A stretch of DNA of 64,000 bases, taken from assembly GCA_964612595.1 (NCBI GenBank), contig CAZTFB010000003.1:32272-96271 (forward strand), given 5' to 3'. Position numbers and translations under genes: made by a program. This DNA comes from an uncultured Gammaproteobacteria bacterium. GTDB taxonomy: Bacteria > Patescibacteriota > Microgenomatia > UBA1406 > HO2-37-13b. Numbering within the stretch: the stretch's first letter is position 1; each line of letters opens with the position of its first letter. Shown here in pieces: positions 1-43,168 of the stretch. The notes under the pieces were generated by a model, which was not told the origin of the DNA, did no database searches, and saw only the letters and a program-made list of their open reading frames with translations.

Positions 1-1023
1 TCTAGAGTGGAGTAGAGAATAGAGCTTTCTGACAATATATTCTCATATTTCCCGCATCTCATAGTATGAAATTTAATATAGAAATATACAGGGACGTATT
101 GGAGAACTATAGCAGAAACAATCCAGAACTCATTTCGCCAACATACACACAAATCGGAGAAATGCACATCTATTAAGTATAAGCTATGATTCTACACTAC
201 CCTCGTTGGACGTTTGGGTGACGTCGTAAAAGATACAATTTACGACGTCGCATAAACAACATTCCCCGCAACGATGGATATCACATAAGACACATATAGG
301 ACACTTCTCACAGAGTGATGGTAGAAAACACCTCACTAGACATAGGTGTCACCATATTTTTTGATTTTGTCATTGCAATTGCGTATTGATACGTATTAAT
401 GTTTCTATCTATTGCTACCACTCACAACCACTCTCGTGATTTGATGAACTTTCCTAATTTAGCGCATCATATCAAACTATTCGTAAATCTTTGAGCTTAA
501 TTTTAATTGACTTTAGTGTGTCTTTGTAAAAACAATTCAGTTTAGAGCCTTATATCTATCTATTCGCTCACTTTTAGCCTCACAACTATATCAAAAGCAT
601 TCAATTTTCCATTGCAATTTAGAGCGTTACAATAATCTTTTTATTAACTTTTGAGGCTATTTTCCGCTGCTAAGTAATGTATGAATTAGCAGTTATCCAC
701 ATCAGTGCCAGCCCCTTCTCGAGAGTGAGGGTGTCCGCAATGTGGTATGCAATAGCAATCTAATCTAAGCAGACTATCTATCTACGCTTAATTTTCTTAC
801 CATTTCATATTCATGAGCACACGAGCCAAAAGTACTTTCTCACGTCTCGCCTTTCATAAATTACACGTACGTGAGTTTTTAATAAATACTATAGGATATA
901 ATACTATGGGCCATTTACTATAGGATACAACATTCACGTTCGTGAAATCTGCTTCTCCCCTCTCCTCTACTGCGACCTGTCACATTATGAAGTTCTGAGC
1001 TCACAATAATAAACAATTTGATT

Positions 1024-4494: not shown

Positions 4495-6202
4495 GTTCGA
4501 TCTTCAGGCGCTTTACTTTTCCTACAATATCTTTTTTTGGGATATTAAAACCGACAAGCACCTTTTTTACAATTGATAATGCTGCTTCAAACTCTGGCTG
4601 CACAACCACCTCAGCACCCAAATCTTTTATACGCTGACGATACTCATCAACAGCGATGCGTGACAAAATCGTAATTTTTGGATTCAAAATTTTTGCATTT
4701 AGAACGATCATTTCCTGCGAAAACTGATCAGGAACGGCAGAAACCAACATATTTGCATGCTCGGTCTCGGCGAAATCCAATATATCAATATCGCTTGGAT
4801 CTCCGTAGATAATGTTGATGCCTTTTTTCTTCTGCTCCTCAACTATACGTGAATTATAATCAATCGCAATAAAGGGCACCTGAGCGAGCGTCAGGGCACG
4901 TCCTATATAACTCCCCACTCTTCCATATCCACAGATCACCACATGATCCTTAAGCTGCAGTACATCGATATGTGCAGGCTCACTATCTATACGATGTGCA
5001 ATATAATGATCAAGCCCAGGTAAGCGAGCGCGAATGAATTTTCTAATGCGCGCATACATATAGTCCTTTCGCTCTATTAGAATTGGTGAAATGGTTATAG
5101 TGACGAGCGTTGAAGCAATAGCAAAGTAATATATATCATTGCTAATGATTCCTCCTTCATGGCCCTGTTTGAGCACCACAAATGCAAATTCTCCTATCTG
5201 CGAAAGCAGGAGCGCACCGCTAAATGCTGTCTTTGAATGGAATCTGAAGTAAGTAAAGATGGCATCAACAATAAGAAATTTAGCTATCATCGCGACCATG
5301 ACAAAGATGATTGTTCCAGGTAAATGCGCGAGCAGTTGGCCAACATCGAGCGTCGCACCCATGACGACAAAAAAGAGAATCGTAAATAGGTCGCGCATAG
5401 GTCGCATCTGAGAAAAGATTTGATAATGCTCCATAGTACCGCCAATAATGACACCAGCTGCAAACGCAGCTATTGCTGGCGAGAGGCCAAGATATGAGAA
5501 TACGAACACTGCAGATACAACTGTCAATACAGTGAGCAAATTTAATAATTCTTTTGATACTCGTGCTGTCTTGGAAAATACGAATGGGGCGAATTTTTGG
5601 CCGACAAAATACATAACAGCCAGAATAAACACCGTTTTTCCTGACGTTATCAGTATATCTATGACAATATCTAAGCCTGTAGTTGCTCTTCCTAGTGAGG
5701 AAAGAAAAATCATAAAAGGAATCACAAGGAGGTCTTGAAGAATTAATATGCCTAGCGTAAGACTACCCATGAGTGAATCTTCCTCACCTTTCTCTTGGAT
5801 AATTTTTGATACAAGCGCCGTTGAGGATAGCGAAAATGCAAAAGCAACAACAAATGCTTCGATAAGAGTAGAGCCTCGTAAAAGAATCAATGAAAAGAAT
5901 ACCATTGTGGTTAGCACCATTTGTGAAACTGAGACGGCTATAAGAAGCTTTCCAAACCTTCTCAATTTATTTATGTTTGTCTCAAGACCGATAGTGAACA
6001 GTAAAAGTATTAAGCCGGTTTGTGCAATATTTGATAGAAATTGATCCCCTGTTCCCTTAGTCAACACACCTAGTACCATGCCAGAAAAAATATAGCCCAG
6101 CATACGTGGAAGTCGTAACTTAGTCATAACCATGCCGCCAAGAAAAGGAAAGAGAATAAATAGAATTAAATTAAAAAGAAAGTCTAGAGGCAGTTCAGAC
6201 AT
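4481..6202 (-). CDS. CPA2-family K+/H+ antiporter with C-terminal RCK (TrkA-N) domain, Kef-type
   Basis: About 12 TM helices in the first ~400 aa, then a Rossmann RCK motif (VVICGYGRVGSYIGRAL...IAIDYN). Confidence 0.8.
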   Translation of the reverse strand: MSELPLDFLFNLILFILFPFLGGMVMTKLRLPRMLGYIFSGMVLGVLTKGTGDQFLSNIAQTGLILLLFTIGLETNINKLRRFGKLLIAVSVSQMVLTTMVFFSLILLRGSTLIEAFVVAFAFSLSSTALVSKIIQEKGEEDSLMGSLTLGILILQDLLVIPFMIFLSSLGRATTGLDIVIDILITSGKTVFILAVMYFVGQKFAPFVFSKTARVSKELLNLLTVLTVVSAVFVFSYLGLSPAIAAFAAGVIIGGTMEHYQIFSQMRPMRDLFTILFFVVMGATLDVGQLLAHLPGTIIFVMVAMIAKFLIVDAIFTYFRFHSKTAFSGALLLSQIGEFAFVVLKQGHEGGIISNDIYYFAIASTLVTITISPILIERKDYMYARIRKFIRARLPGLDHYIAHRIDSEPAHIDVLQLKDHVVICGYGRVGSYIGRALTLAQVPFIAIDYNSRIVEEQKKKGINIIYGDPSDIDILDFAETEHANMLVSAVPDQFSQEMIVLNAKILNPKITILSRIAVDEYRQRIKDLGAEVVVQPEFEAALSIVKKVLVGFNIPKKDIVGKVKRLKIEHGMA

Positions 6203-11645: not shown

Positions 11646-12588
11646 CCCATTTTCCAACAAGAGTTTTATCTCGATTGATCAGATAACCTCACCTGCCGAT
11701 ATTAACTATATTTTCGGTGTCGCAGATAAGATGAAGAAGACAATCCAATCTGGAAAAGTCTACGAGCCTCTGAAAGGAAAAACAGTTGCTGTCCTGTTTT
11801 ACCAGCCATCCACACGTACATTTACTTCATTCGTAGCCGCCGCAAAGCGCCTAGGCGCATACGTCATCGACATTAATGAAATGACGAGCTTCAGCTCGGC
11901 AGTAAAAGGAGAAAGTCTTGAGGATACTATTAAATCGATCTATCAAACCACCGGCGCCAATGCAATAGTGCTACGCCATCCAGAAAACACATCGAGCGAG
12001 ATTGCTGCTTCAGTACAAGACATTCCTGTCATCAATGGTGGTAGCGGCACTGCAGAACATCCTACACAGGCATTACTTGACCTCTATACGATTTATCAAA
12101 AATTCGGTCGTCTTGATAACCTGCACACAATGATGGTCGGCGACCTAAAATACGGGCGCACTATTAAGTCTCTCGCAAAACTGATCGCCCGCGTAAGTAA
12201 AAATTCGACCATAACCTTTGTGTCGCCAAAAGAACTCCGCGCACCAAAAGATTTCATTAAGGACCTCAAGGATAAAGTTGTAGTTTCCCAGCGCTCTAGC
12301 TTTGGTACTGAAATCGAACAGGCAGATGTCGTATATATGACGCGTGTACAAAAGGAATGGTTTGAGAAGGAAGGCAAACTAGATCAATACGAAGCCTTAA
12401 AGCTCAAGTTTATCATGAACAAGCACACCGCAGAAAAAATGAAGAAAGATGCCATTATTCTCCACCCGCTGCCGCGTGTAGGAGAAATCCTTCTCGAAGT
12501 TGATAGCGACCCTCGCGCATGGTACTTTGAACAAATGCGCTCAGGTCTTTATATTCGTATGGCACTTATTGAGTCGATCTTAGCGTAA
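11635..12588 (+). CDS. second transcarbamylase paralog, aspartate-carbamoyltransferase-like
   Basis: STRT(F) carbamoyl-phosphate motif and HPLPR motif (ATCase-like). 317 aa. Overlaps the argF stop by 11 nt. Confidence 0.65.
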   Translation: MKNNPFSNKSFISIDQITSPADINYIFGVADKMKKTIQSGKVYEPLKGKTVAVLFYQPSTRTFTSFVAAAKRLGAYVIDINEMTSFSSAVKGESLEDTIKSIYQTTGANAIVLRHPENTSSEIAASVQDIPVINGGSGTAEHPTQALLDLYTIYQKFGRLDNLHTMMVGDLKYGRTIKSLAKLIARVSKNSTITFVSPKELRAPKDFIKDLKDKVVVSQRSSFGTEIEQADVVYMTRVQKEWFEKEGKLDQYEALKLKFIMNKHTAEKMKKDAIILHPLPRVGEILLEVDSDPRAWYFEQMRSGLYIRMALIESILA

Positions 12589-13815
12589 TAATAGGTCAGG
12601 GTCATTGGGATACCTATTATTCCCAAGAAGCGCTATCGCGAGTGGTACAACAGCTCTTGGATCATCACTAGACAAGGCTTCTGCAGTACGCCTCACACTC
12701 CTTGCCAACCCAGGAGTAACGTCAACTCCAACTGGAAGATGTTTCTTAATGACGGGTACAATATCATCATATTCCAATCTATCAACTCCTGCATCTACCT
12801 CTGCAAGACCAATATCAGCATTAATCCTGTGCAACAATCCCCCTGCAGCAACAACCACATCTATACATTCATACGCAAGATGTTCTTGTATATATGCCTC
12901 AAGCCCTTCTAATGAATGAATACCGGTGTAAATTTCAAGCTCATCATCTTTTATGTCCCCCGCTGCTGCTCTTTGTCTAACAGCGTCATGAAACTCCTGA
13001 ATAGAGTTAAAGTTGAGTATTATTTGTGCTGGTTCACCTGGGGTATTACCGTTTTCAATGTGAAAAAAGCTTCTTAATTCGACCACCTCTGCCATTTCAG
13101 ATACAAGTTGGATCATACTATCTGCTGCGTCTTGTCCAGTAAGTTTTTCGAATTCACGCGATGAATCAACAATTCCCTGAAGTCCTGATTTAAGTCCTAG
13201 ATACTTTGTCACGTCGAAATGTCGGCTTTCTCCAGCATCTGTTAGATATTCCCTTTCTGTACTATAATTATTTTCATCTAAATATAACTTGGCAAACTCC
13301 CGTGCTTCTTCAGGAGTAAAGCCAGCACGAATAGCCTCCTCATACTTTGGCCTACCAACTTCTAATGCATCTTTCTCGTCATCAGTAATTGTAAATTGAT
13401 GTTTTCCCCACATGGTTCTACACTCGTCTTTGATGAGGGCAACAGTGGGTTCATGGCCTGCGGCGATAACACGCTTCATTGCTTCATGCCAAACTTCAAT
13501 ATATTTTTCGCTACGGCCTATAAGAACATCTAATGTTGCTCTTTGAGGATCAATTTTCGCACTACGACAAAATTCTCTCATTCCAAGCTCAAATCGAGCG
13601 ACGCGATTAGCATATTCTTGAGCTTCATCAGGAGCTATTGTTCCATGTACGAGTGCAGATTCGTACTTATTATTAACCTCAACGAAGTTTCCAAAAGCAG
13701 CCTCAGCAGTACGGAAATGCTCAGCAGTTGGAATGTGTGCACCATACACCGTCTCGTGCCAAGTTGGTGCTGCGCCATTTGTTCCCTGTCCTGTTACGCC
13801 TAGCTCTGCTGTCAT
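12580..13815 (-). CDS. hypothetical protein (411 aa), function unknown
   Basis: Long intact ORF convergent with and slightly overlapping the transcarbamylase pair. No motif recognised. No resemblance to arginine deiminase as far as memory allows. Confidence 0.4.
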   Translation of the reverse strand: MTAELGVTGQGTNGAAPTWHETVYGAHIPTAEHFRTAEAAFGNFVEVNNKYESALVHGTIAPDEAQEYANRVARFELGMREFCRSAKIDPQRATLDVLIGRSEKYIEVWHEAMKRVIAAGHEPTVALIKDECRTMWGKHQFTITDDEKDALEVGRPKYEEAIRAGFTPEEAREFAKLYLDENNYSTEREYLTDAGESRHFDVTKYLGLKSGLQGIVDSSREFEKLTGQDAADSMIQLVSEMAEVVELRSFFHIENGNTPGEPAQIILNFNSIQEFHDAVRQRAAAGDIKDDELEIYTGIHSLEGLEAYIQEHLAYECIDVVVAAGGLLHRINADIGLAEVDAGVDRLEYDDIVPVIKKHLPVGVDVTPGLARSVRRTAEALSSDDPRAVVPLAIALLGNNRYPNDPDLLLR

Positions 13816-14010
13816 ATACTATAAATCTATACTAGTAACAACCTCTTGTCAAGTACTATAAGATAGTACATTCCCAACCAAAAAAAGCCTTTTTTATTTT
13901 GTGCGTAACGGGAGAAAGAAACGAGAGGTTCTTGTCGAAGATTCAAGAGCACCATAGAGCATCTTACATGAAGTCGAAGTAAAATGCAATATACTGTATA
14001 ATTTCGGTAG

Positions 14011-14616
14011 ATGAAGAAACAACTTCACAAAATAATCCTCGCATCAACCTCACCTCGTCGTAAAGATCTGCTTTCTTCCATAGGGCTTACGTTTGAGGTA
14101 GTACCAAGCAATTACGAAGAAGATATGACGCTTCCCCTTCTTCCTGAGGAGCTCACTATACATCTATCCAAAGAAAAGGCGCTTGCTATCGCCGATAGAT
14201 ATCCTGATGCAGTTATTATTGGCGCCGACACGATCATTGCTTTTGACGAAAAAGTCCTCGGGAAGGCGCATACAAAAGAAGAGGTGCAGCGTATGTTGGC
14301 CCTACTTTCTGGTAAGAAACACTCGGTTGTTACTGGTTTAACCGTGATTATTCCTGCCTCTATAGCCCAAACCCAGGAACGAATTATAGAAACATATGCA
14401 AGTAAGAATCGCGTTCATTTTAAAACAATTACTCAAGATGAAATAAACTGGTACATCGCCACTGGAGAACCATTTGGAAAAGCAGGTGGCTACGCAATCC
14501 AAGGCTTCGGTGCAGTATTTGTCAATGGTATTGAAGGAAACTATAGTGGCATTGTAGGATTGCCCGTAGAGGCAGTCTATAGCATCTTAAGGTCATACGA
14601 CGTGTTTGTGTTATAA
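14011..14616 (+). CDS. maf: Maf-family nucleoside triphosphate pyrophosphatase (septum formation protein Maf)
   Basis: N-terminal ILASTSPRRKDLL, GADTII and the conserved Maf core. 201 aa. Confidence 0.85.
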   Translation: MKKQLHKIILASTSPRRKDLLSSIGLTFEVVPSNYEEDMTLPLLPEELTIHLSKEKALAIADRYPDAVIIGADTIIAFDEKVLGKAHTKEEVQRMLALLSGKKHSVVTGLTVIIPASIAQTQERIIETYASKNRVHFKTITQDEINWYIATGEPFGKAGGYAIQGFGAVFVNGIEGNYSGIVGLPVEAVYSILRSYDVFVL

Positions 14617-14634
14617 TACCAACCCAAACCTAAT

Positions 14635-15762
14635 ATGACAACACCCGGTGCTCGAGTAGAGCGAGATACACATATTAACCTCGAACCTACACTTGCCTTC
14701 AATGGCGACCCGAATCGTATCCCAGTACAGATGCCTGAGCGCATCTCGGGCTATAAGGATCTCGTTATTGAGGCACTCACACCAGAGCATGAGGCGTTTG
14801 AAGAATATGCAAAAGCATATGTTGCACACATCTTAAACAAGCAAAATATAGAAGCTGGCAACTTCGTATGGCCACCTTTTAAGCTCAGCCACTTAAAAGA
14901 CATGCCTGATGAAGCGATGTATGACGCAGAAGGAAACATGCATGAAGAGTACGTTGTTAATGTTATAAGAGACTATCTCATACCTACAATCAAAGATAAA
15001 GGCAATCATCTTTTAGTATTGCACGGCTTGATCGATGGAAAACCAGGATTTATAGGCGGTGGGCTTTCTTTTGATAGTGTTGATACTGAGGATGAGGGTT
15101 GGATAAGTAAAGGTATTATCGCTCGTAACACAAATGGCAAGGAACACCGTGGAAATGGCCTTGGTCGCATTATCCAAGAAGCACGCGTTATGCACTGGAT
15201 GCTCGAACATCCACAGTTAAACAATCTCAATACGGGGGTCAATATAAACGAAGAAGGTTGTGATCGCTTTAAGCACGTAGTGACAAGCCAGGTTTTGGGC
15301 GACATGAGCATCCTGCATAAACTTCGCACTGGTGAGACTATTAAGAGTGATGATATCCAATCGTTGTTTTCTGCAAGTATGCGACTCCGGGTAGAACAGG
15401 GATACGCAGAAAACCTTATTTTTACAGAAGAAGAATACAAAAAATTCGTAGACAAGGTCGAAAATATTATTGGACCATGGCCATTGTATGGATTTACTCC
15501 AGAATCTGTACGCAAAGGAAAAGACATAATAGCAGCAACTGCAGAGCTACTTGGCGTACCGTTAACACCAACCGAGCATACATTCCTCGGTCTTGGCGGA
15601 AGACATCTTAACGCAATAGAAAACAGCGCACGGGTAAAAGGAAAAGATGAACTTAATCATACACGACGCCTTATTATCGTAAGAGAAGATTGGGAGGCTT
15701 TGGCAAAACAACGATATCCAGATTTAGCGTCGTATCTAGATCAAGCAAAACGAGCAGCATAA
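14635..15762 (+). CDS. hypothetical cytoplasmic protein (375 aa)
   Basis: Intact ORF with typical spacing after maf. No recognised motif. Confidence 0.4.
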   Translation: MTTPGARVERDTHINLEPTLAFNGDPNRIPVQMPERISGYKDLVIEALTPEHEAFEEYAKAYVAHILNKQNIEAGNFVWPPFKLSHLKDMPDEAMYDAEGNMHEEYVVNVIRDYLIPTIKDKGNHLLVLHGLIDGKPGFIGGGLSFDSVDTEDEGWISKGIIARNTNGKEHRGNGLGRIIQEARVMHWMLEHPQLNNLNTGVNINEEGCDRFKHVVTSQVLGDMSILHKLRTGETIKSDDIQSLFSASMRLRVEQGYAENLIFTEEEYKKFVDKVENIIGPWPLYGFTPESVRKGKDIIAATAELLGVPLTPTEHTFLGLGGRHLNAIENSARVKGKDELNHTRRLIIVREDWEALAKQRYPDLASYLDQAKRAA

Positions 15763-15809
15763 AACTCATATGCACGTACGAAAATGTGCTATACTAAGCA
15801 CAAGCACCT

Positions 15810-17066
15810 ATGAAAGTAGCAAATTTCATGCGAACCTCGGTGGTTTCGGTATCTTCAGACGAACCCGTGCGAACGGTAACCCGTCTTATCTTCAACCTTG
15901 GTATAAAAAGCGTTCCCATATGTGACGATGGGAAACTAGTCGGTATCGTTACCGAAGAAGACATTCTTACAAAACTCTTCCCTTCTGTACGGGATTTTAT
16001 GGAAGATCGCGCCCATGCTGATGATTTTGAGGCTATGGAAAAAAATTTGGGCGCACTGATAAATAAACCCGTTAAAAAAATAATGACGAGCAAACCCAGG
16101 GTTGTTCATGCGGATCTCCCCATTATGCAAGCTCAATCACTCATGATTGTCGGGAAAATAAGTCATCTCCCCGTTGTTGATGATCAAAAGAAACTAGTTG
16201 GAATTATTTCACAAGGTGACATATTTAGAGCCATTGTAGGCCAAGAAATACCATATGATGACAATGAAGAATATCATGCGTGGCTCTCGCGCCATTGGGA
16301 CCTTGTCGTACCTTGGAAACAACGACTCAGTGGTGAAATTGCTGCGTTCAATAAACTATTCGAAAAGAAATATTCGTATCGCATTCTTGATATTTTCTGC
16401 GGTACCGGCGAACATGCCATCGCTCTTGCCCGTGAGGGCTACGATGTAACTGGTATGAATAAATACATTCTTATGCATAATGCTGCGACGAAAAAACACA
16501 CGCAACTTCCTGAGTACCTCCAAAGACGCATCGAATTTGTCCATGGCGACTATATTGATCTTTTGAAGGATAAAAAGGAAGACTACGACGCAGCAATATT
16601 TATGGGCAACTCTCTCGCCCATAATCCGCATGATTATAAAAAAATCATCAAAACAACAAGCCAAAGTCTCACAAAGAAAAATGCGATAATGATCTTGCAG
16701 ATTGCTAATTTCGATAAAATTCTTGAAAATGGAGGCCTCCAGGATTTCAATATGCGCCCCTCAAAACTTAACGATGACACAAAATACACCTTTATTGAGT
16801 TTTATGACAGTCCCAAAGTTACGGGAAAAAAAGATCTGCTTACGCTCAACATGGCGATATTACGCCACGTTGGTCATCGATGGACCTTCGCTGCTATGAA
16901 TAGCACCCCGATCGCCTATATATCGCCAGATATTATTACTGCAGTTCTAAAAGAGGCTGGATTTAAAAAAGTTGAATTATTCGGTAGCCGCTTTTTAGAG
17001 CCCCTCTTTGAACATAAATTCTCTGTCTCCGATCACGATTGGCTGAACGTGATCGCTTCGCGATAA
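15810..17066 (+). CDS. CBS-pair + class I SAM-dependent methyltransferase fusion protein
   Basis: N-terminal CBS pair (VGIVTEEDIL, VGIISQGDIF). C-terminal methyltransferase motif I (ILDIFCGTGEHAIALAREGYDVTGMN). Confidence 0.7.
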   Translation: MKVANFMRTSVVSVSSDEPVRTVTRLIFNLGIKSVPICDDGKLVGIVTEEDILTKLFPSVRDFMEDRAHADDFEAMEKNLGALINKPVKKIMTSKPRVVHADLPIMQAQSLMIVGKISHLPVVDDQKKLVGIISQGDIFRAIVGQEIPYDDNEEYHAWLSRHWDLVVPWKQRLSGEIAAFNKLFEKKYSYRILDIFCGTGEHAIALAREGYDVTGMNKYILMHNAATKKHTQLPEYLQRRIEFVHGDYIDLLKDKKEDYDAAIFMGNSLAHNPHDYKKIIKTTSQSLTKKNAIMILQIANFDKILENGGLQDFNMRPSKLNDDTKYTFIEFYDSPKVTGKKDLLTLNMAILRHVGHRWTFAAMNSTPIAYISPDIITAVLKEAGFKKVELFGSRFLEPLFEHKFSVSDHDWLNVIASR

Positions 17067-17150
17067 GACCGCAACCTCTCGAGGATCGCTCCTCGACTTG
17101 AAATATTCCCCTCCGTTTGATATAATGCTATAGGTTGTTTTCGACCCCCA
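17055..17150 (+). promoter_or_regulatory. repeated promoter module, copy 1 (33-bp identical box + TTGAAA-17-TATAAT + CTATAGGTTGTT)
   Basis: TTCGCGATAAGACCGCAACCTCTCGAGGATCG is identical to 17616-17648. It is followed by -35 TTGAAA, a 17-nt spacer and TATAAT. It begins inside the last codons of the CBS-MTase gene. Confidence 0.5.
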
Positions 17151-17237
17151 CTCAGCGAGATGATGAACCATAAGCTGTAGAATGAAGATTGTTACAGGAG
17201 TAGTCGGTTGTAAGACTGAGCTACCCAAATTTTTTGA

Positions 17238-17320
17238 GTGATAATTTGATTCACCCAAAGTGGATTAGATTGCCGCCCAAAACGTACTGAGCCTGGTCGG
17301 CGTAAAAAAGGGAGTTTCCA
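17238..17320 (+). ncRNA. conserved ~50-nt leader element (copy A) preceding a small ORF
   Basis: GAGTGATAATTTGATTCACCCAAAGTGGATTAGATTGCCGCCCAAAACGT is about 85% identical to 18282-18331. It contains a hairpin whose 3' arm differs between copies but stays complementary. RBS AAAAGGGAG follows. Confidence 0.35.
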
Positions 17321-17515
17321 GTGGGTTTCGCACCACCAGTTGTTTCACAAACGACCGAAGTGGAAGCCGTTGTTGAAATCACTTGCGAGTGGCGTGATGC
17401 AGGTGGAGAAGTCCATCTTACGGTCTATAATGGACCTGAAGGTGATCTCGCGGGATACCTAGAAAAGTTTGGAGAGAGTCGAAACTGGACATTAGTGTCC
17501 AAGCAACGGCGTTGA
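17321..17515 (+). CDS. small high-GC hypothetical protein (64 aa, GTG start)
   Basis: ORF immediately after the leader and RBS. GC about 58%. Terminated by a G8CC/GGC7 hairpin. Confidence 0.4.
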   Translation: MGFAPPVVSQTTEVEAVVEITCEWRDAGGEVHLTVYNGPEGDLAGYLEKFGESRNWTLVSKQRR

Positions 17516-17540
17516 TCTCTCCGGACAAACCAACTCCAAT

Positions 17541-17563
17541 GGGGGGGGCCTCCGGCCCCCCCT
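17541..17563 (+). terminator. GC-rich hairpin (GGGGGGGGCC-TCC-GGCCCCCCC)
   Basis: 9-10 bp G/C stem 26 nt after the small-ORF stop, followed by TCCATACTTTCTG. Confidence 0.35.
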
Positions 17564-17615
17564 CCATACTTTCTGTGAAATTCTCAAAAGACCATCTGTA
17601 CCCCTATCATACTCA

Positions 17616-17712
17616 TTCGCGATAAGACCGCAACCTCTCGAGGATCGTGGCAGACTTGAAAAATCATCTTCTTTTTAGTATAATACTATAGGTTGTTCTT
17701 AACACACAGCGA
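17616..17712 (+). promoter_or_regulatory. repeated promoter module, copy 2 (drives the LysM gene)
   Basis: Same 33-bp box, TTGAAA-17-TATAAT and ACTATAGGTTGTT as copy 1. ATG of the LysM gene at 17721. Confidence 0.5.
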
Positions 17713-17720
17713 GGTGAAGC

Positions 17721-18188
17721 ATGAGCGGTAAAATGAAAATCGCAACTGCTGTTGGGCTCTTCCTACTATGGGTTGGTGTGAGCAATAAGCTCCAACCAAT
17801 CAACTTTGGAGGCAGCTCGAACGAGGAGGTTGCGGTCAGCGGCTCGGTGGATACCAGCGCTTGCGCGGGGGTTCACTGGGTCAAGCCTGGCGAAACACTG
17901 AGCAACATTGCAGCGCGATACGGGCATACCGTCATCGCACTCGCACAGGCAAGCAACATCTCGAACCCGAACAAGATCAGTATCGGGGAGAAGGTCTGCC
18001 TGCCCAAGAGCCCAGCGCCAAAGGTCGCAGCCTCAAGCTGCAGCCAACAACATGTCGTCGCCGAAGGCGACACATTGGAGAAGATCGGCAGGCAGTACGG
18101 GACGACGGCTGGGGTGTTGGCGAGCAAGAATGGGCTCGCCAATCCGAATTACATCATACCCGGATGGAAGCTCTGTGTGAGCCCTTAG
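17721..18188 (+). CDS. secreted tandem-LysM peptidoglycan-binding protein
   Basis: N-terminal signal or anchor helix. Two LysM modules (HWVKPGETLSNIAARYGHTVIALAQAS...IGEKVCLP; HVVAEGDTLEKIGRQYGTTAGVLASKNGL...PGWKLCV). GC about 58%. Confidence 0.8.
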   Translation: MSGKMKIATAVGLFLLWVGVSNKLQPINFGGSSNEEVAVSGSVDTSACAGVHWVKPGETLSNIAARYGHTVIALAQASNISNPNKISIGEKVCLPKSPAPKVAASSCSQQHVVAEGDTLEKIGRQYGTTAGVLASKNGLANPNYIIPGWKLCVSP

Positions 18189-18216
18189 GGGCAAGCTCAG
18201 ACGAACAAAGACAATC

Positions 18217-18254
18217 GGTGACCTAGTCGCAACGTGCGTTGCGACTAGGTCACC
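18217..18254. repeat. perfect 38-nt palindrome (17-bp stem, 4-nt loop) after the LysM gene
   Basis: GGTGACCTAGTCGCAAC-GTGC-GTTGCGACTAGGTCACC. No downstream U-tract. Could be a terminator or a protein-binding site. Confidence 0.5.
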
Positions 18255-18281
18255 ACAGTACCTTGCAATAAAAAGGTTTGA

Positions 18282-18365
18282 GTGACAGTTTAATTCATGC
18301 AAAATATGGATTAGATTGCCGCCCAAAACGTTCACAGTCGGGGCGGTCCAGGAAAGGTATAGGAG
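18282..18365 (+). ncRNA. conserved leader element (copy B)
   Basis: GAGTGACAGTTTAATTCATGCAAAATATGGATTAGATTGCCGCCCAAAACGT, with CCGCCC/GGGCGG hairpin and RBS GGAAAGGTATAGGAG. Confidence 0.35.
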
Positions 18366-18512
18366 ATGGACATCTATTATATCGTCACGTATGTGACGAA
18401 GGATGGCGAGACCAAGACTCAGATTGTCAGCTCTGACAACCTCGAGTGGTTCAAGAGCTACGTCGCCTCACAGGGCGGCAGTGTCATTCATATTTCTTCT
18501 AAAATCTTTTAG
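18366..18512 (+). CDS. small hypothetical protein (48 aa) not in the ORF track
   Basis: ATG 7 nt after the RBS. Translation MDIYYIVTYVTKDGETKTQIVSSDNLEWFKSYVASQGGSVIHISSKIF. High GC. Confidence 0.35.
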   Translation: MDIYYIVTYVTKDGETKTQIVSSDNLEWFKSYVASQGGSVIHISSKIF

Positions 18513-18677
18513 TATACTCACCTATTTTGCCTCTGACCCCATAAAAACGGGATTTTGATTATATAGATGAAAATTTAAGAAGAAAAATGAAAATATATAC
18601 CGTACAGGTGCCAGCGGCCTAACCGCTGGCACCTGTCTCGGTACCTTCATTCGATAACACATCTCCTTTCTGGACCT

Positions 18678-19442
18678 CTAGGTCCATTTGCCGTTGCTAG
18701 CCCAGCTTGCCAGTGACTTTAACATCAGTGCATAGCCGGGACCAGCACTGATCCTCTTCTCTCTTGGCCGTTGCAAGCTTGTCGGCCACCACATTCCGCG
18801 ACGTGGTAGGAGAAGTCGTCTCTCTTTGTCTGAACCCCTCACCGTGAACTTCACCACGGTCAGATCCAGAACCATTTCCGACCAGACCACTCCCTCGAGG
18901 TCTACCTTTTCAGGCAGCTGTATGTCATCCAGCTCAATAACCCACATCTGCCCCGCCCGATCCCAGAACCATGAGGTGGAGTACACCAGACGCTTGCTGT
19001 CGGTGTGAATCTCAACTCTCAAGAACAGCAGCTCGATGAGGCTGATATGAGCTGCATGCCGAGCAGAGAGAGAGAACAAGCCCATCCAAGGCTTCGGGAG
19101 AACGATGACCGTGGGTCGAACATCCATGGCCATCTTCCCATCGCCCTCGTCACGCTCCCACAGATCTGTTCTGAACCTGAGCGGATTACCTCCCTCTTTG
19201 CGAGGAGTGGTGCGGTTCTGCTTTCTGGTCAAATGTGACCTCAGCCAGCCCGAAAGCCGGTAGATTGCCACCATAGGCCAGTCCAGCAGAGTTGTCTCAC
19301 TGGTGGGGGCGGCTTGCTGTGTGCTTGCCGCCCTCTCATCGGATGCAGGTTTTGAGCTCTGCAAGGACGCGATGAAGCTTCTCACCTGACCAGAAAGCCA
19401 GTAGACCAGCTCCATTGGGAGGTCAAGAATCTTGTCGATCAT
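18678..19442 (-). CDS. hypothetical protein (254 aa) in high-GC island, with an internal N-terminal repeat
   Basis: Two copies of a D(L/W)PMxxxYxLSGxxRS motif near the N-terminus. GC about 58%. No recognised domain. Confidence 0.45.
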   Translation of the reverse strand: MIDKILDLPMELVYWLSGQVRSFIASLQSSKPASDERAASTQQAAPTSETTLLDWPMVAIYRLSGWLRSHLTRKQNRTTPRKEGGNPLRFRTDLWERDEGDGKMAMDVRPTVIVLPKPWMGLFSLSARHAAHISLIELLFLRVEIHTDSKRLVYSTSWFWDRAGQMWVIELDDIQLPEKVDLEGVVWSEMVLDLTVVKFTVRGSDKERRLLLPRRGMWWPTSLQRPREKRISAGPGYALMLKSLASWASNGKWT

Positions 19443-19451
19443 ACTGACCTC

Positions 19452-20498
19452 CTACTGAATGTGGCTCAAGCCACGCCAGATCTGCGCCCAGCAGGTCGTT
19501 CCCTGCACGTTCATGAGCACTTCGACCCGAGGCACCTCGTTGGCCCTGTTGTTGCGGATGCTTCGCGGATCGAAGCGATGCTTAGTTCCGCTAGCAAGGA
19601 TCTTGCTCCCGTTATCCCAGACACACGGGATACCTGCAGGAGCATCGATCACAAGCCAACTCGTGAACACCGATGTTAGTGCATCAGGTCCATCGCCGGT
19701 CGAGACGACCGGCGCAGGCCCCGGCGCGGACGCCGGGGCCTGGCTCTGCTGATCAACCTGGATGAAGATGCCCTTCGGGTAGTGCCGGGGGCCAAGGTCA
19801 CCGGTTCCATCCAGTGCCTTGCCGTTCATGGCACCCAAACCCTTCACGGCAGCTTCGGTCAGGGTGATCTTGACGATGCCGTAGTCGCTGTTTTCCCTGT
19901 CATTGCAGGTCATCTGCCACTCCTGAGGGCCGAACCACGGATCATCGACCATGGCAAACGCACAGCGAACCCCGATCGGGATCTGGGCCGATGTCGCATC
20001 GCCATTCGTATGGTAGTGATTGCCTCTGAACCAATTCCCCCAGGCAACAACCGGCTTCTCGTACTCCTGATGGTACTTGATCGGCGTCGCCGTAGGGGCT
20101 GGTGTTGGCTTGATGATCTCGATGTTGGCACCGTCCTCGGTGTACGTATCGGACGCCGGCCCGCTGCTGTGAGAGTCGCCAGACGTGTCGCTTCTTTCCT
20201 GGATCTGGACCGAGTCGTTCACGGCCAAGATGTCGCCATCGAGGACGTTGTCCACTCCGTTGGAAAGAACGTCATCTACCTGAGCCCGCTCGGCTCCCTT
20301 GGCGAGGAACTTGAAGCCGAGGTCCGTCACCGGCCAGAAGCCGATGGTGATGCTGAAGAACATGATGAGCATGCCTCCGATCACCGTAAGCGCGTTCTCG
20401 ACCTTCAAGCCGTTCGTCTTGACGTCGCGGATGCCCGCGACAATCAGGAGCAGAGCGAGACCAAAGGCGATCAGTGCGTTCAGGACGCTGTTTTCCAT
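19452..20498 (-). CDS. membrane-anchored hypothetical protein (348 aa) in high-GC island
   Basis: Two N-terminal TM helices, a Ser/Thr/Pro-rich linker, and a C-terminal globular domain of unknown fold. Confidence 0.45.
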   Translation of the reverse strand: MENSVLNALIAFGLALLLIVAGIRDVKTNGLKVENALTVIGGMLIMFFSITIGFWPVTDLGFKFLAKGAERAQVDDVLSNGVDNVLDGDILAVNDSVQIQERSDTSGDSHSSGPASDTYTEDGANIEIIKPTPAPTATPIKYHQEYEKPVVAWGNWFRGNHYHTNGDATSAQIPIGVRCAFAMVDDPWFGPQEWQMTCNDRENSDYGIVKITLTEAAVKGLGAMNGKALDGTGDLGPRHYPKGIFIQVDQQSQAPASAPGPAPVVSTGDGPDALTSVFTSWLVIDAPAGIPCVWDNGSKILASGTKHRFDPRSIRNNRANEVPRVEVLMNVQGTTCWAQIWRGLSHIQ

Positions 20499-20513
20499 CT
20501 GAGTGACCTCCTG

Positions 20514-22997
20514 TCACTGTTGTGCCAGCCACCCGAGGGCGGCTAGCTGCGGATAGGTCTCCAGCATTGCCTTCCACGATTGGCAGTCGTAGCCGTTTGT
20601 GTTATTCGAAGACGTGCAGGAGTTATTTACGGGCCAGCGACGATCAAAGAACATCATCCCGACCCGATTGTTATCCGACACGCCATAGTGAGACTTAGTC
20701 TTCTGCAGACTCTCCCACTTGGCGGAAGCGCCTCCGAAGCCATCGTTGATCACAACGAATCGAAGGCCCGGGACTCCACCGAAGTCGGCATTGTTGCCTC
20801 CCATCGAATGGAACACGTCCCAGACCAACACTATACCCTCGCCCTTCAAGCCAGCCTTTTCTCGAGCTCTTGCAAACTCTTGAGCAACTTGCTTGACGTC
20901 AGCGAAAGTCAGCGCCGTGTTGTGCTCTTGGTCAACCACGATGCCATCCAATCCAAGTGGCGTTAGCTGAGTAATCCCCTTGCGAAGATCCTCGACCTTA
21001 CCACTCGTATCGAGCAGAACCATGGTGCCATTGGCATGAGCAGTTGGAATCAACTTCACGAAATGATTCATCGTGAAGCCAGAGTGTAGTACGGGTACGA
21101 CAACCGGAGTTGCCGACCTACTCGTTGCGCCTTCTACAGCGCTAGCCCAACTCCTCGCTGCCCCAACGATCTGGTCTTCGGAACAGGTATTCCCGAGCGT
21201 TCCTGGCCCACCGTTTGTACATGGCCACCCCCAGACAGGAGTGAAGAGGCCCGTTGCAGGTACCTCAAACGCGTACGACCGGCTGACACCAGTGAATTTC
21301 TCGAGAACCGAAGCGTCGAAGGTCACGTTACTGTAATTCCTCAGGAAGCGAAGAGCTCCCATTTCGTGCGTCCGGATGGACATGCCGAAGAGGAATGCCA
21401 GCATCATGATCTGGACGTAGTAAACCGCGAATTGAACCCAAAGCCCTTTCAGACTCCCATTCTCGCTCTTGATAAAGTACCGGATAATCAGCCCCATCGA
21501 ACGAAGGGGCACGATGATCACAGCACCCATCGCAAGCAAGATGGCAAGCAAAAGGAGCGTTGGACCGAGCGCTAGTGCATAGGTAAGTGACGGACCTGAC
21601 TGCATGGGATTATTGCCTTGGTAAGGCTCATCCCACGGCCAATCTTCCGTCGATCCGCGAAGGCGATATTCCATTAGCTCAGGATCGAAGTATGTATCGA
21701 CCCTTTCTTGCCTCTGGTTCGCATCGCGGATTTCAAAGTGGACATGCGACCAGCCTGTCATACCAGTCATTCCCACTCTGCCTAGCACAGTTGATTGATC
21801 CACTTCTTGACCCGTCTTTACCATGACGTATCCTTCCGGATCGCCACTGGAACCAGACGGAATCTTGAAAGATGGATCTCGCTCATCAACAAGGTGGGCA
21901 TACACAGTGGAACGGCCGTCTGGATGCTTTATCCACACCCAGCAGCCATAGTTACCGGCGTTATTACAGCCGGCGTATTCCACCTTGCCCGGGGCGGCAG
22001 CACGCACAGCAGCAAGCTGCACCGCGCTGAGATCCCACGCATTCACAGAACACCGACCGGTCTTCACCGGACCAATGATCGTGCACTGCGTGTGATCGTC
22101 TTCATCGGAGCTGATGGTATTGCTGGCAACCGGAAGGCGCCAGCCATCCTTACCCACAAGTCGTCCGTCCCTGAAACCGTCTACCAGCTCTGGTCGTTGC
22201 ACGATCAAATCGGGCTTGAACCAGTTAATGGGAAGACTGAACAGGAACTTCTGGGTTGCGAGGACAGGATGGTTGTAGACCTTCAGACGGTTCTCCACGT
22301 TGTTGTCAGAGACTAATAGCGATGTTTCGCTACACTCTGGCACATTGCATGGATCTCGTCTCCCATATTTTTCATGGGTAGCATAACCCATGTAATCTGC
22401 TCCGATCGACACAAAAGTCCAACCGGACAGATTCATGGGAGCCTTCGGATCATCCGCCTTTACAAAAACGCCTTTGTATCGTCTTGCAAAGTGAAGATGA
22501 GATCCACTAGTTCTACCGTACGCACAGTCAACACGACCGATCCGATCGCTCGCCTGCACCACTGTACCAACAGGTATGCGATCAGTATCGGACATGTGAT
22601 AGTACAGCAGCGACCACGAGTTGTTCGGGTCACCATCACCATCGAGGTCCACGATAACCTCTCCCTCTTTGGAGGTGGTAACCACTCCCGGGGCCGCGGC
22701 AAGAACCCATTCATGCGATATTTCACAGCCCCTTGAAATAGGGACTGCGAAGTCAACTGCAGCAAATTGGCCATCTTTGTAGCCAAGGTGCGGTCCTCCC
22801 GAGTAAATCCATTTCTCCTCAGAGGAGAATGGCAAAAGTAGAGGTGGTTGTTGAGGCGCACGTGCAAGATCGACCCACGTGGAATCCATATGGGTTGAGT
22901 TCTGCGCGTAAACGACATTTTGTTCTTTTGTATGTGCTGAAAGGACGAAAGCCATGATGGCCACCGTCCTCAGCATGCGAAACGCTGGGGTGGTCAT
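20514..22997 (-). CDS. multidomain cell-wall hydrolase with two M23 (LytM-type) metallopeptidase domains, mid-protein TM segments and an uncharacterised C-terminal domain
   Basis: Signal peptide. M23 signatures GRTSGSHLHFARRY and GMTGMTGWSHVHFEIRD. Hydrophobic helices around residues 470-540. 827 aa, GC about 60%. Confidence 0.7.
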   Translation of the reverse strand: MTTPAFRMLRTVAIMAFVLSAHTKEQNVVYAQNSTHMDSTWVDLARAPQQPPLLLPFSSEEKWIYSGGPHLGYKDGQFAAVDFAVPISRGCEISHEWVLAAAPGVVTTSKEGEVIVDLDGDGDPNNSWSLLYYHMSDTDRIPVGTVVQASDRIGRVDCAYGRTSGSHLHFARRYKGVFVKADDPKAPMNLSGWTFVSIGADYMGYATHEKYGRRDPCNVPECSETSLLVSDNNVENRLKVYNHPVLATQKFLFSLPINWFKPDLIVQRPELVDGFRDGRLVGKDGWRLPVASNTISSDEDDHTQCTIIGPVKTGRCSVNAWDLSAVQLAAVRAAAPGKVEYAGCNNAGNYGCWVWIKHPDGRSTVYAHLVDERDPSFKIPSGSSGDPEGYVMVKTGQEVDQSTVLGRVGMTGMTGWSHVHFEIRDANQRQERVDTYFDPELMEYRLRGSTEDWPWDEPYQGNNPMQSGPSLTYALALGPTLLLLAILLAMGAVIIVPLRSMGLIIRYFIKSENGSLKGLWVQFAVYYVQIMMLAFLFGMSIRTHEMGALRFLRNYSNVTFDASVLEKFTGVSRSYAFEVPATGLFTPVWGWPCTNGGPGTLGNTCSEDQIVGAARSWASAVEGATSRSATPVVVPVLHSGFTMNHFVKLIPTAHANGTMVLLDTSGKVEDLRKGITQLTPLGLDGIVVDQEHNTALTFADVKQVAQEFARAREKAGLKGEGIVLVWDVFHSMGGNNADFGGVPGLRFVVINDGFGGASAKWESLQKTKSHYGVSDNNRVGMMFFDRRWPVNNSCTSSNNTNGYDCQSWKAMLETYPQLAALGWLAQQ

Positions 22998-23158
22998 CGG
23001 CCTTGTCCTTTCGAAGGTACCGAGTTGTCAAAGTTCAAAACTGAGTCTTTTCAGACACAGTCCTCCCACACATTGCGGAAGGGAATATATTATACCACGA
23101 GACACAAAAAATAGACTTATAGCAATAAACTACAAGCTTTTTTAAAAAGATTTCGCAG

Positions 23159-40801: not shown

Positions 40802-40830
40802 TTGACAAATGGTCTGCGATATACTATACT
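40802..40830 (+). promoter_or_regulatory. consensus promoter TTGACA-17-TATACT followed by ACTATAGG, heading a ~430-nt ORF-free region
   Basis: -35 at 40802-40807 and -10 at 40825-40830. No ORF until 41263. Confidence 0.4.
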
Positions 40831-40993
40831 ATAGGTCACTAAGTTTTAGTCTTCGGACTTTTACTTGGTATAATAAGATAACCATTTATATCTGCCCAGT
40901 GTTTTGCTGAAGCAGAGATAAAAGGTGCACCTTTACAACTAGGGTTCAGGAAATTTAATTAACTACTCGATTTATGGGATAGCAGCTTTACTG

Positions 40994-41002
40994 CTAGGTT
41001 CC
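40994..41002. repeat. 9-bp direct repeat CTAGGTTCC (left copy) at the left edge of the high-GC island
   Basis: Recurs at 43305-43313, and partially at 43260 and 43290. GC jumps from about 35% to over 60% some 40 bp to the right. Confidence 0.4.
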
Positions 41003-41481: not shown

Positions 41482-41512
41482 CCTACGCAAACGAACTAAG
41501 GAGAAACAGCAC

Positions 41513-43150: not shown

Positions 43151-43168
43151 CCGCAGCCGAACGAGTTT

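What the first reader, a model, noticed from the sequence alone, without database searches (positions are those of the whole stretch)
17055..17722. Duplicated about 95-bp promoter module (33-bp identical box + TTGAAA-17-TATAAT + CTATAGGTTGTT) bracketing an inserted small-gene cassette
The 33-mer TTCGCGATAAGACCGCAACCTCTCGAGGATCG occurs at 17055 and again at 17616. At 17055 it overlaps the stop codon of the CBS-MTase gene. Each copy is followed by a near-consensus promoter and the same CTATAGGTTGTT start region. The 527 bp between the copies contains the high-GC 64-aa ORF and its terminator. This looks like an att-type duplication produced by insertion of a promoter-carrying cassette, or a portable promoter being copied. 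The 33-bp box, a partial palindrome GCGAT...ATCGC, may be an operator.
Basis: seen in the sequence. Interest (0 to 1): 0.6.

Follow-up and report, generated by a model that had tools for sequence, protein, structure and literature searches.

The report
Tandem duplicate of a promoter unit
In a small CPR (Microgenomates) bacterial genome, the strong promoter at the start of a variable LysM cell-wall gene cluster has been duplicated head to tail with its leader, leaving a partly decayed extra copy; this is ordinary segmental duplication, not a mobile promoter, attachment site or conserved operator.

Summary
An exact 32-mer lies at 17057-17088 and 17616-17647, not at 17055, and it is 32 nt, not 33. 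Each copy is followed by TTGAAA-17-TATAAT and CTATAGGTTGTT.

The repeat is larger than reported. Homology runs about 133 nt, into the first codons of the LysM gene. A second repeated module, an 89-nt leader before a small ORF, and a shared unit end (..ATACTCA) show two head-to-tail copies of one transcription unit.
- Unit B (17616-18520) is intact: promoter, lysM, hairpin, leader, orfB.
- Unit A (17057-17615) keeps the promoter and leader but has lost the lysM start codon and about 490 nt of lysM.

Eight relatives (71-95% CBS-methyltransferase identity) each carry one promoter of this type directly after that gene, and none carries the box. The box is copied native sequence: the last 10 nt of the methyltransferase gene plus a fast-evolving spacer.

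The box is 32/32 identical, but the DNA next to it is only about 68% identical. The joint is therefore younger than the divergence of the two units. That points to unequal recombination between diverged versions of the locus, or to a later short conversion patch.

I found no recombinase, no further copies and no dyad symmetry. Interest is low.

The parts
15810..17066 (+). CBS-domain / SAM-methyltransferase gene (418 aa). Its last 10 nt, including the stop codon, form the start of box copy 1.
   Evidence: ORF list. Pfam CBS 3.9e-28 and Methyltransf_25 5.8e-10. Orthologues at 71-95% aa identity in eight relatives.
17057..17088 (+). Box copy 1: the exact 32-mer, made of 10 nt of CDS end plus 22 nt of intergenic spacer. 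It is the head of unit A.
   Evidence: It aligns at 54-55% with the CDS end plus spacer of L012/L013.
17079..17096 (+). 7-bp-stem hairpin TCGAGGA-tcgc-TCCTCGA just after the methyltransferase stop. The left arm lies in the box and the right arm outside it. It is present only at copy 1.
   Evidence: RNA fold of 17040-17110. Copy 2 (17600-17670) has no such hairpin; its z-score is +0.9.
17098..17139 (+). Promoter P1: TTGAAA (17098-17103), 17-nt spacer, TATAAT (17121-17126), then CTATAGGTTGTT (17128-17139).
   Evidence: 35/44 identical to the P2 core, with differences concentrated in the spacer.
17140..17232 (+). Decayed copy of the P2 5'UTR and the first codons of lysM (ATG to ATA, with an in-frame TAG). 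A 43-nt stretch (17190-17232) then stands in place of 536 nt of unit B.
   Evidence: Local alignment of A against B scores 34, z = 8.9, with 0 of 300 shuffles as good. Alignments. blastn limits 17057-17189 versus 17616-17740.
17233..17320 (+). Leader L1: a conserved 5' leader module with two predicted hairpins and the ribosome-binding site GGGAG.
   Evidence: 73% identical to L2, with an identical core GGATTAGATTGCCGCCCAAAACG. The core is also present in L011, L013 and L021. Folds.
17321..17515 (+). orfA, 64 aa with a GTG start. It is a singleton and is not demonstrably related to orfB.
   Evidence: No Pfam hit. On record only from one 149,340-nt NCBI contig. BLASTP against the L011 small ORF gives nothing. 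hhalign against the orfB family gives E = 0.11.
17541..17564 (+). GC-rich hairpin (terminator-like, weak T tract) ending unit A's transcript.
17565..17615 (+). Spacer at the end of unit A (CATACTTTCT ... CATACTCA). It is homologous to the spacer after orfB and after the L011 small ORF. The novel junction ...ACTCA|TTCGCG lies at 17615/17616.
   Evidence: Alignments. Left of 17616 there is no similarity to the methyltransferase CDS.
17616..17647 (+). Box copy 2, the head of unit B. It contains a non-coding copy of the last 10 nt of the methyltransferase CDS.
   Evidence: Box 2 plus linker plus P2 is colinear with stop, spacer and promoter in L012/L013.
17656..17697 (+). Promoter P2: TTGAAA (17656-17661), 17-nt spacer, TATAAT (17679-17684), then CTATAGGTTGTT (17686-17697). 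This is the orthologue-like copy.
   Evidence: The core is 41/43 identical to OLB23 and 36/44 to L012.
17721..18188 (+). lysM gene (155 aa, two LysM domains, N-terminal hydrophobic segment).
   Evidence: Pfam LysM 2.7e-27, two stretches. By my inspection of the translations it is the orthologue of the two-LysM genes of L012 and L013.
18217..18254 (.). Perfect 18-bp-stem hairpin between lysM and L2. It is absent from unit A.
   Evidence: (I3). Conserved in L012 and L013.
18277..18365 (+). Leader L2, the paralogue of L1.
18366..18520 (+). orfB (18366-18512, 48 aa; 63 aa in a 99.7%-identical strain) and the end of unit B (...TATACTCA at 18520).
   Evidence: The family has only 4 members in the 5.8-billion-protein search, plus one more read by eye in L020.

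Best explanation
The two 32-mers are the heads of two head-to-tail copies of one transcription unit. The unit sits at the left edge of a GC-rich, fast-evolving LysM/M23 cell-wall island in a Microgenomates (CPR) genome.

Unit B (17616-18520) is the intact, orthologue-like copy: box, sigma-70-type promoter P2, lysM, hairpin, leader L2, orfB. Unit A (17057-17615) is a diverged and internally deleted copy. It keeps a consensus promoter (P1), the leader (L1), a small ORF and a hairpin terminator. It has lost the lysM start codon and about 490 nt of lysM plus the hairpin.

Inferred origin: unequal or illegitimate recombination between two copies of the locus, either sister chromosomes or two strains. 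It joined the unit end (...CATACTCA) to a point 10 nt inside the 3' end of the CBS-methyltransferase gene. Box copy 2 therefore carries a useless copy of that gene's last three codons and stop.

The box is 32/32 identical while the adjoining DNA is about 68% identical, and the box is not conserved between species. The joint must therefore be much younger than the A/B divergence. Either the recombining partners were already diverged alleles that shared the core flank up to 17088 (homology-facilitated illegitimate recombination), or a later short gene-conversion patch homogenised the first 32 nt. These two variants are not resolved.

Inferred function, not shown: P1 transcribes L1-orfA and P2 transcribes lysM-L2-orfB. 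The box itself has no demonstrated role. It completes the methyltransferase CDS, forms half of a post-stop hairpin at copy 1, and makes unit A deletable by homologous recombination.
For: Shown:
- Exact 32-mer present twice only.
- Homology extends to 17189/17740. It includes the 5'UTR and first lysM codons, with z = 8.9 and 0 of 300 shuffles as good. This match is better than either copy's match to any relative.
- A second shared module, L1/L2, is 73% identical.
- Both units end in ..ATACTCA; B and L011 then continue CCTATTT, whereas A continues with the box.
- There is no similarity left of 17616 to the CDS left of 17057, so the boundary is sharp.
- All eight relatives (L019 95%, L011/L015 89%, L016 87%, L012 86%, L013 85%, L020 80%, L021 71% aa identity of the methyltransferase) have one promoter of this type 10-57 nt after the stop codon. 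The box was not found (up to 8 mismatches) in L011-L014 and is not seen after the stop codon in the other four.
- Box 2 + linker + P2 is colinear with stop + spacer + promoter of L012/L013. Identity is 56-58% over box plus linker and 82-95% over the promoter core. CDS end, box and P2 were therefore contiguous ancestrally.
- P(32/32) is 4e-6 to 8e-4 at 68-80% identity.
- No recombinase domain in the island or flanking ORFs tested. No copies in JGI metagenome contigs or IMG/VR, and no match in the phage or plasmid collections.
- The structure is supported by k=31 contig breaks at 17086 and 17618 in five runs and in a 99.7%-identical strain.
Against: - Simple duplication followed by divergence cannot explain 100% identity in the box beside about 68% next to it. 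A second event or pre-diverged partners must be assumed, and neither was observed.
- orfA shows no significant similarity to orfB (hhalign E = 0.11). The ORF part of unit A may have a different origin.
- No genome of the same species lacking unit A was found, so the timing and polarity of the event are inferred only from more distant relatives.
- The middle Logan contig (about 590 nt) could not be retrieved.
- There are no transcript data for either promoter.
Confidence: 0.6

Rival explanations
1. The box is a lineage-specific cis-regulatory site, for example a class-I activator or repressor site at about -45 to -76. Selection keeps it identical upstream of both promoters so that the two units are co-regulated.
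For: The box lies at the same distance from both -35 hexamers, 9 and 8 nt. It is 32/32 identical where neighbouring sequence is 68%. If about two thirds of its positions were constrained, the remaining positions staying identical by chance is not extreme (my estimate is about 0.02).
Against: The box is not conserved at the orthologous position in any of the eight relatives. It aligns at 54-58% in L012/L013 and is unalignable in L019, L011, L015, L016, L020 and L021. In the same comparisons the promoter core is 82-95% conserved. No dyad or direct-repeat symmetry is shared by both copies, and copy 2 folds no better than shuffles. Ten of its 32 nt are simply the end of a coding sequence. Constraint on all 32 positions is unusual for a protein-binding site.
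Confidence: 0.12
2. Site-specific (att-type) insertion of a 527-bp promoter-carrying cassette. The box is the att core duplicated at both ends, as in islands that integrate into the 3' end of a gene and restore it.
For: Exact direct repeats bracket the extra segment. The repeat includes the 3' end of the target gene, so the gene stays intact. Relatives have only one promoter at this place.
Against: No integrase or recombinase domain was found in the ORFs tested around it. The box has no other copy in the window. It was not found in JGI metagenome contigs or IMG/VR, and the segment has no match in the phage or plasmid collections. The 'cassette' is homologous along most of its length to the resident downstream unit (promoter, 5'UTR, lysM start, leader, spacer), so it is a copy of the locus and not foreign cargo. 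It has no terminal inverted repeats.
Confidence: 0.07
3. Old in-situ tandem duplication in which the whole unit simply diverged and the box stayed identical by chance.
For: The head-to-tail architecture is the same as in the main explanation.
Against: P(32/32) is 4e-6 to 8e-4 at the identity observed in the adjoining aligned DNA. The box is the least conserved part between species.
Confidence: 0.03
4. Assembly artefact: two strain variants of the same locus were stitched in tandem through a shared 32-nt k-mer overlap.
For: The window appears to come from a metagenome-assembled contig; orfA is recorded only from one 149-kb NCBI contig. A repeat of 32 nt equals k-1 for k = 33. The middle piece was not recovered from Logan.
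Against: In five Logan runs the methyltransferase contig stops at 17086. This means the first 31-mer of the box has a second, different predecessor. The structure in the window predicts exactly that, and a mix of two strains sharing the same gene end does not. The lysM contig starts at 17618 in all runs. A strain 99.7% identical shows the same breaks. The junction ...CATACTCA|TTCGCG is not an allele of anything upstream.
Confidence: 0.05

Closest known systems
Tandem segmental duplication by unequal or illegitimate recombination, followed by decay of one copy (general bacterial genome evolution; from my own knowledge)
   Same: Head-to-tail homologous units, a novel end|start junction, a single copy in all outgroups, and pseudogenisation with internal deletion of one copy.
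   Different: The first 32 nt of the units are identical while the rest is about 68% identical. One simple duplication is therefore not enough; a later conversion or recombination between pre-diverged alleles is required.
Homology-facilitated illegitimate recombination during natural transformation (described in Acinetobacter and Streptococcus pneumoniae; from my own knowledge)
   Same: One homologous anchor in conserved flanking DNA plus one illegitimate joint adds DNA next to the resident allele. This would explain a sharp switch from 100% to about 68% identity at the core/island boundary.
   Different: Not demonstrated here. The donor allele, the competence of this organism and the second crossover are all inferred.
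Genomic islands and prophages integrated into the 3' end of a gene, with attL/attR direct repeats
   Same: Exact direct repeats bracket an extra segment, and the repeat contains the 3' end of the target gene, so the gene is kept intact.
   Different: There is no integrase, the segment is only 527 bp, its content is homologous to the neighbouring resident unit, and the repeat was not found anywhere else.
Sigma-70-type promoters (TTGACA-17-TATAAT)
   Same: Both copies match 11/12 consensus positions with a 17-nt spacer. The window holds ten such near-consensus sites against about 2 in shuffles.
   Different: These promoters carry an extra conserved CTATAGGTT element 1-3 nt after the -10, or overlapping a TATACT -10 in L020 and L021. 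The spacer is also conserved between species. Neither feature is part of the generic consensus. No start site has been mapped.

Membership tests
Tandem segmental duplication | Two adjacent head-to-tail units homologous along their length | tested here: met
   Box 32/32. Promoter, 5'UTR and lysM start at about 68% (z = 8.9). Leader at 73%. Shared unit end ..ATACTCA. The ORF part (orfA against orfB) is not demonstrably homologous.
Tandem segmental duplication | Novel junction joining the unit end to the unit start, with no homology beyond it | tested here: met
   The junction is at 17615|17616. Sequence left of 17616 is unrelated to the CDS left of 17057.
Tandem segmental duplication | Single copy at the orthologous site in outgroups | tested here: met
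   Eight relatives each have one promoter of this type after the methyltransferase gene.
Integrase-mediated att insertion (genomic island or cassette) | A site-specific recombinase gene in or next to the element | tested here: not met
   Pfam scan of the flanking ORFs (12580-17066) and the large ORFs of the island (17321-22997) found CBS, methyltransferase, Maf, LysM and Peptidase_M23 only. Three larger ORFs (254, 348 and 375 aa) and the two small ORFs have no hit at all, and the 411-aa ORF only a sub-threshold Skp1 match.
Integrase-mediated att insertion (genomic island or cassette) | The same core repeat recurs at other insertion sites or in other genomes or elements | tested here: not met
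   Two copies in the window. 0 in JGI metagenome contigs and 0 in IMG/VR for the 22-nt core. Absent from L011-L014 with up to 8 mismatches. The rest of the source genome could not be searched.
Integrase-mediated att insertion (genomic island or cassette) | An exact empty site in a close relative | tested here: inconclusive
   Relatives have a single promoter, but the spacer after the stop codon is unalignable even at 95% protein identity. No genome of the same species without unit A was found.
Transcription-factor operator or activator site | Internal dyad or direct-repeat symmetry present in every copy | tested here: not met
   The GCGAT..ATCGC palindrome is present only in copy 1. Copy 2 folds no better than shuffles, z = +0.9.
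Transcription-factor operator or activator site | Conservation at orthologous promoters | tested here: not met
   Box plus linker is 54-58% identical in L012/L013 and absent or unalignable in six others. The promoter core is 82-95% identical.
Transcription-factor operator or activator site | Binding by a regulator and an effect on transcription | not testable with these tools
   Needs EMSA or reporter assays.
Sigma-70-type promoter | -35 and -10 hexamers close to consensus with 16-18 nt spacing | tested here: met
   TTGAAA-17-TATAAT, 11/12, at both copies.
Sigma-70-type promoter | Transcription initiates about 7 nt downstream of the -10 | not testable with these tools
   No transcript data. 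The predicted starts are near 17132-17134 and 17690-17692.
Transposable element or MITE carrying an outward promoter | Terminal inverted repeats, a short target duplication and many copies | tested here: not met
   No inverted repeats bound 17089-17615. Only two copies in 64 kb. No transposase.

The most novel reading that the evidence does not exclude
The island downstream of the CBS-methyltransferase gene may be built from a small set of conserved regulatory modules placed in front of interchangeable small secreted or cell-wall genes. The modules are the 43-nt promoter core with its CTATAGGTT start element and the L leader with its invariant GGATTAGATTGCCGCCCAAAAC core. They would serve both as a common regulatory handle (one regulator or RNA-binding factor for the whole island) and as homology patches for recombinase-independent shuffling, gain and loss of units. 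On this reading the exact 32-nt box pair is the freshest such joint and allows reversible pop-out of unit A.
Probability: 0.1. Interest if true: 0.5.

Novelty: new member of a known kind. Interest (0 to 1): 0.22.

Why it matters
The practical value is mainly negative. This repeat should not be annotated as an att site, a mobile promoter or an operator.

It does mark the exact left boundary of a fast-evolving, GC-rich LysM/M23 peptidase island in an ultra-small CPR genome. Such islands probably encode surface or host-interaction functions. The locus shows that the island changes by recombination at its regulatory modules.

The comparison also gives a well-defined CPR promoter whose spacer and start region are far better conserved than the neighbouring coding gene (95% against 75%). 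That makes it a concrete candidate for studying transcription control in an uncultivated lineage.

Tried and rejected
- Rfam, at gathering thresholds over the whole window and at permissive E-values over 16900-18800: only two tRNAs elsewhere and chance-level miRNA/snoRNA hits. No known RNA family covers the box, promoter or leader.
- The 22-nt box core was searched in JGI metagenome contigs and IMG/VR: no hit. blastn of 17040-17722 against the phage and plasmid collections: no hit.
- I tried to recover the middle (about 590-nt) Logan contig through orfA, a shorter orfA start and an antisense ORF. None is on record. Short contigs were probably not gene-called; this is my inference.
- I tested whether P1 came from a different lineage. 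P1 resembles the C-rich spacers of L011/L015 by eye, but the identity matrix puts P1 closest to P2 (68%) and OLB23 (67%), not to L011/L015 (57-61%). Rejected.
- I tested whether the remnant after P1 is an orthologue of the first LysM gene of relatives rather than a copy of unit B. The A-to-B match (z = 8.9) is much stronger than A to OLB23 (z = 3.1). Rejected.
- I tested whether CTATAGG after the -10 is a general promoter feature of this genome. Other near-consensus promoters lack it, except the one at 40802. It is not general.
- orfA/orfB homology: BLASTP finds nothing, tblastn E = 5.8, hhalign E = 0.11. Unproven.
- Literature search for Patescibacteria promoter or start-site work found nothing relevant.
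Full report
OBSERVATION. The string TTCGCGATAAGACCGCAACCTCTCGAGGATCG is 32 nt long. It occurs exactly twice in the window, at 17057-17088 and 17616-17647. No further copy exists at up to 3 mismatches, and none is expected by chance. Copy 1 covers the last 10 nt of the CBS-domain/SAM-methyltransferase CDS (15810-17066), including the stop codon at 17064-17066. Each copy is followed, 9 or 8 nt later, by TTGAAA-17-TATAAT. These are the two best sigma-70-like sites in 13.5-24 kb, each matching 11/12 positions. Each is then followed by CTATAGGTTGTT. The 527 bp between the copies holds a 64-aa ORF (17321-17515) and a GC-rich hairpin (17541-17564).

THE REPEAT IS LARGER THAN REPORTED.
- blastn of the region against itself extends the homology to 17057-17189 versus 17616-17740, 76% over 133 nt. 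That stretch runs through the 5'UTR and the first codons of the LysM gene.
- In the upstream copy the start codon is ATA, and an in-frame TAG follows.
- This stretch is a significant match (local score 34, z = 8.9, 0 of 300 shuffles as good). It is better than the match of either copy to any relative.
- A second repeat family, 17233-17320 versus 18277-18365, is 73% identical and has a 25-nt identical core. It precedes two small ORFs, orfA (64 aa) and orfB (48 aa).
- Both units end in ...ATACTCA. After that, the downstream copy and relative L011 continue CCTATTT, whereas the upstream copy continues with the box.

The locus is therefore two head-to-tail units:
- Unit A, 17057-17615: box, P1, decayed lysM start, L1, orfA, terminator, spacer.
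- Unit B, 17616-18520: box, P2, lysM, 18-bp-stem hairpin, L2, orfB, spacer.

In unit A, 43 nt (17190-17232) stand where unit B has 536 nt (17741-18276). Nearly all of lysM and the hairpin have been deleted from A.

ORGANISM AND RELATIVES. The methyltransferase gene and its neighbours (Maf, two OTCase-like genes, Lgt) recur in Microgenomates/CPR assemblies:
- L013, Microgenomates bacterium OLB23: 85% aa identity.
- L012, a 938-kb chromosome: 86%.
- L011 and L015: 89%.
- L016: 87%.
- L019: 95%.
- L020: 80%.
- L021: 71%.

In every one of these eight, the stop codon is followed within 10-57 nt by a single promoter of the same type: TTGAnn-17-TATAAT, 1-3 nt, then CTATAGGTT. In L020 and L021 the form is TATACT-ATAGG. 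That promoter drives a small LysM, small-ORF or secreted-protein gene. None of them carries the box; one search allowed up to 8 mismatches in L011-L014.

The spacer between the stop codon and the -35 is hypervariable. It cannot be aligned even at 95% protein identity. In L012 and L013 it aligns with box plus linker at only 54-58%. By contrast, the 43-nt core of P2 is 41/43 identical to OLB23 and 36/44 to L012, although the adjacent gene is only 75-78% identical at the nucleotide level. The box is therefore not a conserved element. It is this lineage's version of 'CDS end plus spacer'. Box 2 plus P2 is colinear with the ancestral contiguous arrangement of CDS end, spacer and promoter.

WHAT HAPPENED. 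The architecture is that of a tandem duplication. Its left end lies 10 nt inside the methyltransferase CDS and its right end lies after ...ATACTCA. The sharp loss of similarity left of 17616 is the novel end|start junction.

A single duplication followed by divergence does not fit the numbers, however. The box is 32/32 identical, while the adjoining aligned DNA is about 68% identical and the leader 73%. At 68-80% identity, P(32/32) is 4e-6 to 8e-4. The box is also the least constrained part between species. The box pair must therefore be much younger than the A/B divergence. I see two ways to get this:
(a) Unequal or illegitimate recombination between two already diverged versions of the locus that share the conserved flank up to 17088. 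These could be two strains, in the manner of homology-facilitated illegitimate recombination.
(b) An old tandem duplication followed by a short conversion patch starting at the homology boundary.

I cannot separate these two. P1 is closest to P2 (68%) and OLB23 (67%), not to the L011/L015 type (57-61%). Unit A therefore comes from the same lineage as unit B and not from a distant donor.

IS IT REAL? Logan contigs (k = 31) that carry exactly this methyltransferase stop at 17086 in all five runs shown. Contigs carrying exactly this LysM protein start at 17618 in all five runs shown. This is what a repeat of at least 32 nt with two upstream and two downstream contexts produces. A mixture of two strains sharing the gene end would let the first contig run on to 17088. 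The SRR152378xx contigs are 100% identical to the window over up to 10.6 kb. The SRR29243453 strain is 99.7% identical and shows the same breaks. The roughly 590-nt middle contig could not be retrieved, and orfA is on record only from one 149-kb NCBI contig. Misassembly is therefore unlikely but not formally excluded.

RIVALS.
- att-type insertion. The repeats do restore the 3' end of the target gene, as integrating islands do. But no recombinase domain was found in the ORFs tested. The box occurs nowhere else that could be searched, and the segment has no phage or plasmid match. The 'cargo' is a decayed copy of the neighbouring unit.
- Operator. There is no shared symmetry and no conservation in orthologous promoters, and one third of the box is coding sequence. 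A lineage-specific site cannot be excluded without experiments.
- Portable promoter. The promoter is native and positionally conserved in all relatives. It does recur two or three times within the island of some relatives (L011, L015, L016, L021), in front of different genes. Promoter-led units in this island have therefore multiplied more than once.

HOW IT PROBABLY WORKS (inferred, not shown). P1 and P2 are both intact near-consensus promoters. P1 would give a transcript with a leader of about 190 nt, made of the decayed lysM start and L1. That transcript ends at the 17541-17564 hairpin, whose T tract is weak, so some read-through into P2 is possible. P2 would give lysM-L2-orfB. At copy 1 the box also supplies the left arm of a 7-bp hairpin right after the methyltransferase stop (17079-17096). 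Two 32-nt direct repeats make unit A deletable by homologous recombination.

COMPARISON AND VERDICT. This is a lineage-specific tandem duplicate of a promoter-led unit, with decay of one copy, at the edge of a variable island. It is a new instance of a well-known kind of event. The features that go beyond the ordinary are side observations:
- The very high conservation of the P2 core, including its spacer and the CTATAGGTT start element.
- The conserved L leader.
- The persistently GC-rich island (50-60% against about 41%) in an ultra-small genome.

Interest in the finding as stated is low.

Noticed in passing
window 17233-17320 and 18277-18365; L011 3248-3353 and 2575-2660; L013 12476-12530; L021 about 5880-5960: A conserved 5' leader module (core TTGAGTGACA..TTCAT..ATGGATTAGATTGCCGCCCAAAAC) sits in front of different small genes in this Microgenomates clade. 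Two hairpins are predicted, with a few compensatory changes. In L021 the second stem is built differently, so the conservation may be of sequence rather than structure. It has no Rfam match.
   Followed up: partly
window 17655-17697; L013 11286-11328; L012 11286-11328: The 43-nt promoter core, including its 17-nt spacer and CTATAGGTTGT, is 95% identical to OLB23, while the adjacent gene is 75% identical at the nucleotide level. This suggests a regulator site within the promoter itself.
   Followed up: partly
window 40802-40836 and 41000-43200: A second GC-rich island (60-68% GC) encodes a 584-aa Gly/Pro/Cys/Thr-rich ORF (41396-43150). About 600 nt upstream of it lies TTGACA-17-TATACT-ATAGGTCAC, the same TATACT-ATAGG form as the island promoter of relatives L020 and L021. 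The two GC-rich islands may share regulation or origin.
   Followed up: partly
window 17100-23000: A GC-rich (50-60%) island in a roughly 41% GC genome encodes LysM, two ORFs without Pfam hits (254 and 348 aa) and an 827-aa M23 peptidase. Its gene content differs among all relatives, while the flanking genes are syntenic.
   Followed up: partly
window 880-930: An intergenic cluster of ACTATAGGATA (twice) and TATAATACTATGGG. ACTATAGG occurs 7 times in the window against 1.3 expected.
   Followed up: no
L020 4955-5270: In an 80% relative, the promoter after the methyltransferase gene directly drives a 56-aa member of the orfB family (MFDVYYYTVTWVDKEG...), with no LysM gene and no L leader. The word-based protein search missed this member.
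   Followed up: partly
window 18366-18512; L009 751-942: orfB is 48 aa in the window but 63 aa in a 99.7%-identical strain (SRR29243453), because of a one-base difference in a T run near its 3' end. Its last codons run into sequence that is post-terminator spacer in relatives.
   Followed up: partly
window, whole: There are ten near-consensus (at least 11/12) sigma-70-type promoter matches in 64 kb against about 2 in shuffles. This CPR organism evidently uses canonical -35/-10 promoters.
   Followed up: no
cluster of orfB (P0090/P0091): A 385-aa ENA protein (P0091) is filed in the same 90% cluster as the 48-aa orfB. The sequences look unrelated, so this is probably a clustering artefact.
   Followed up: no
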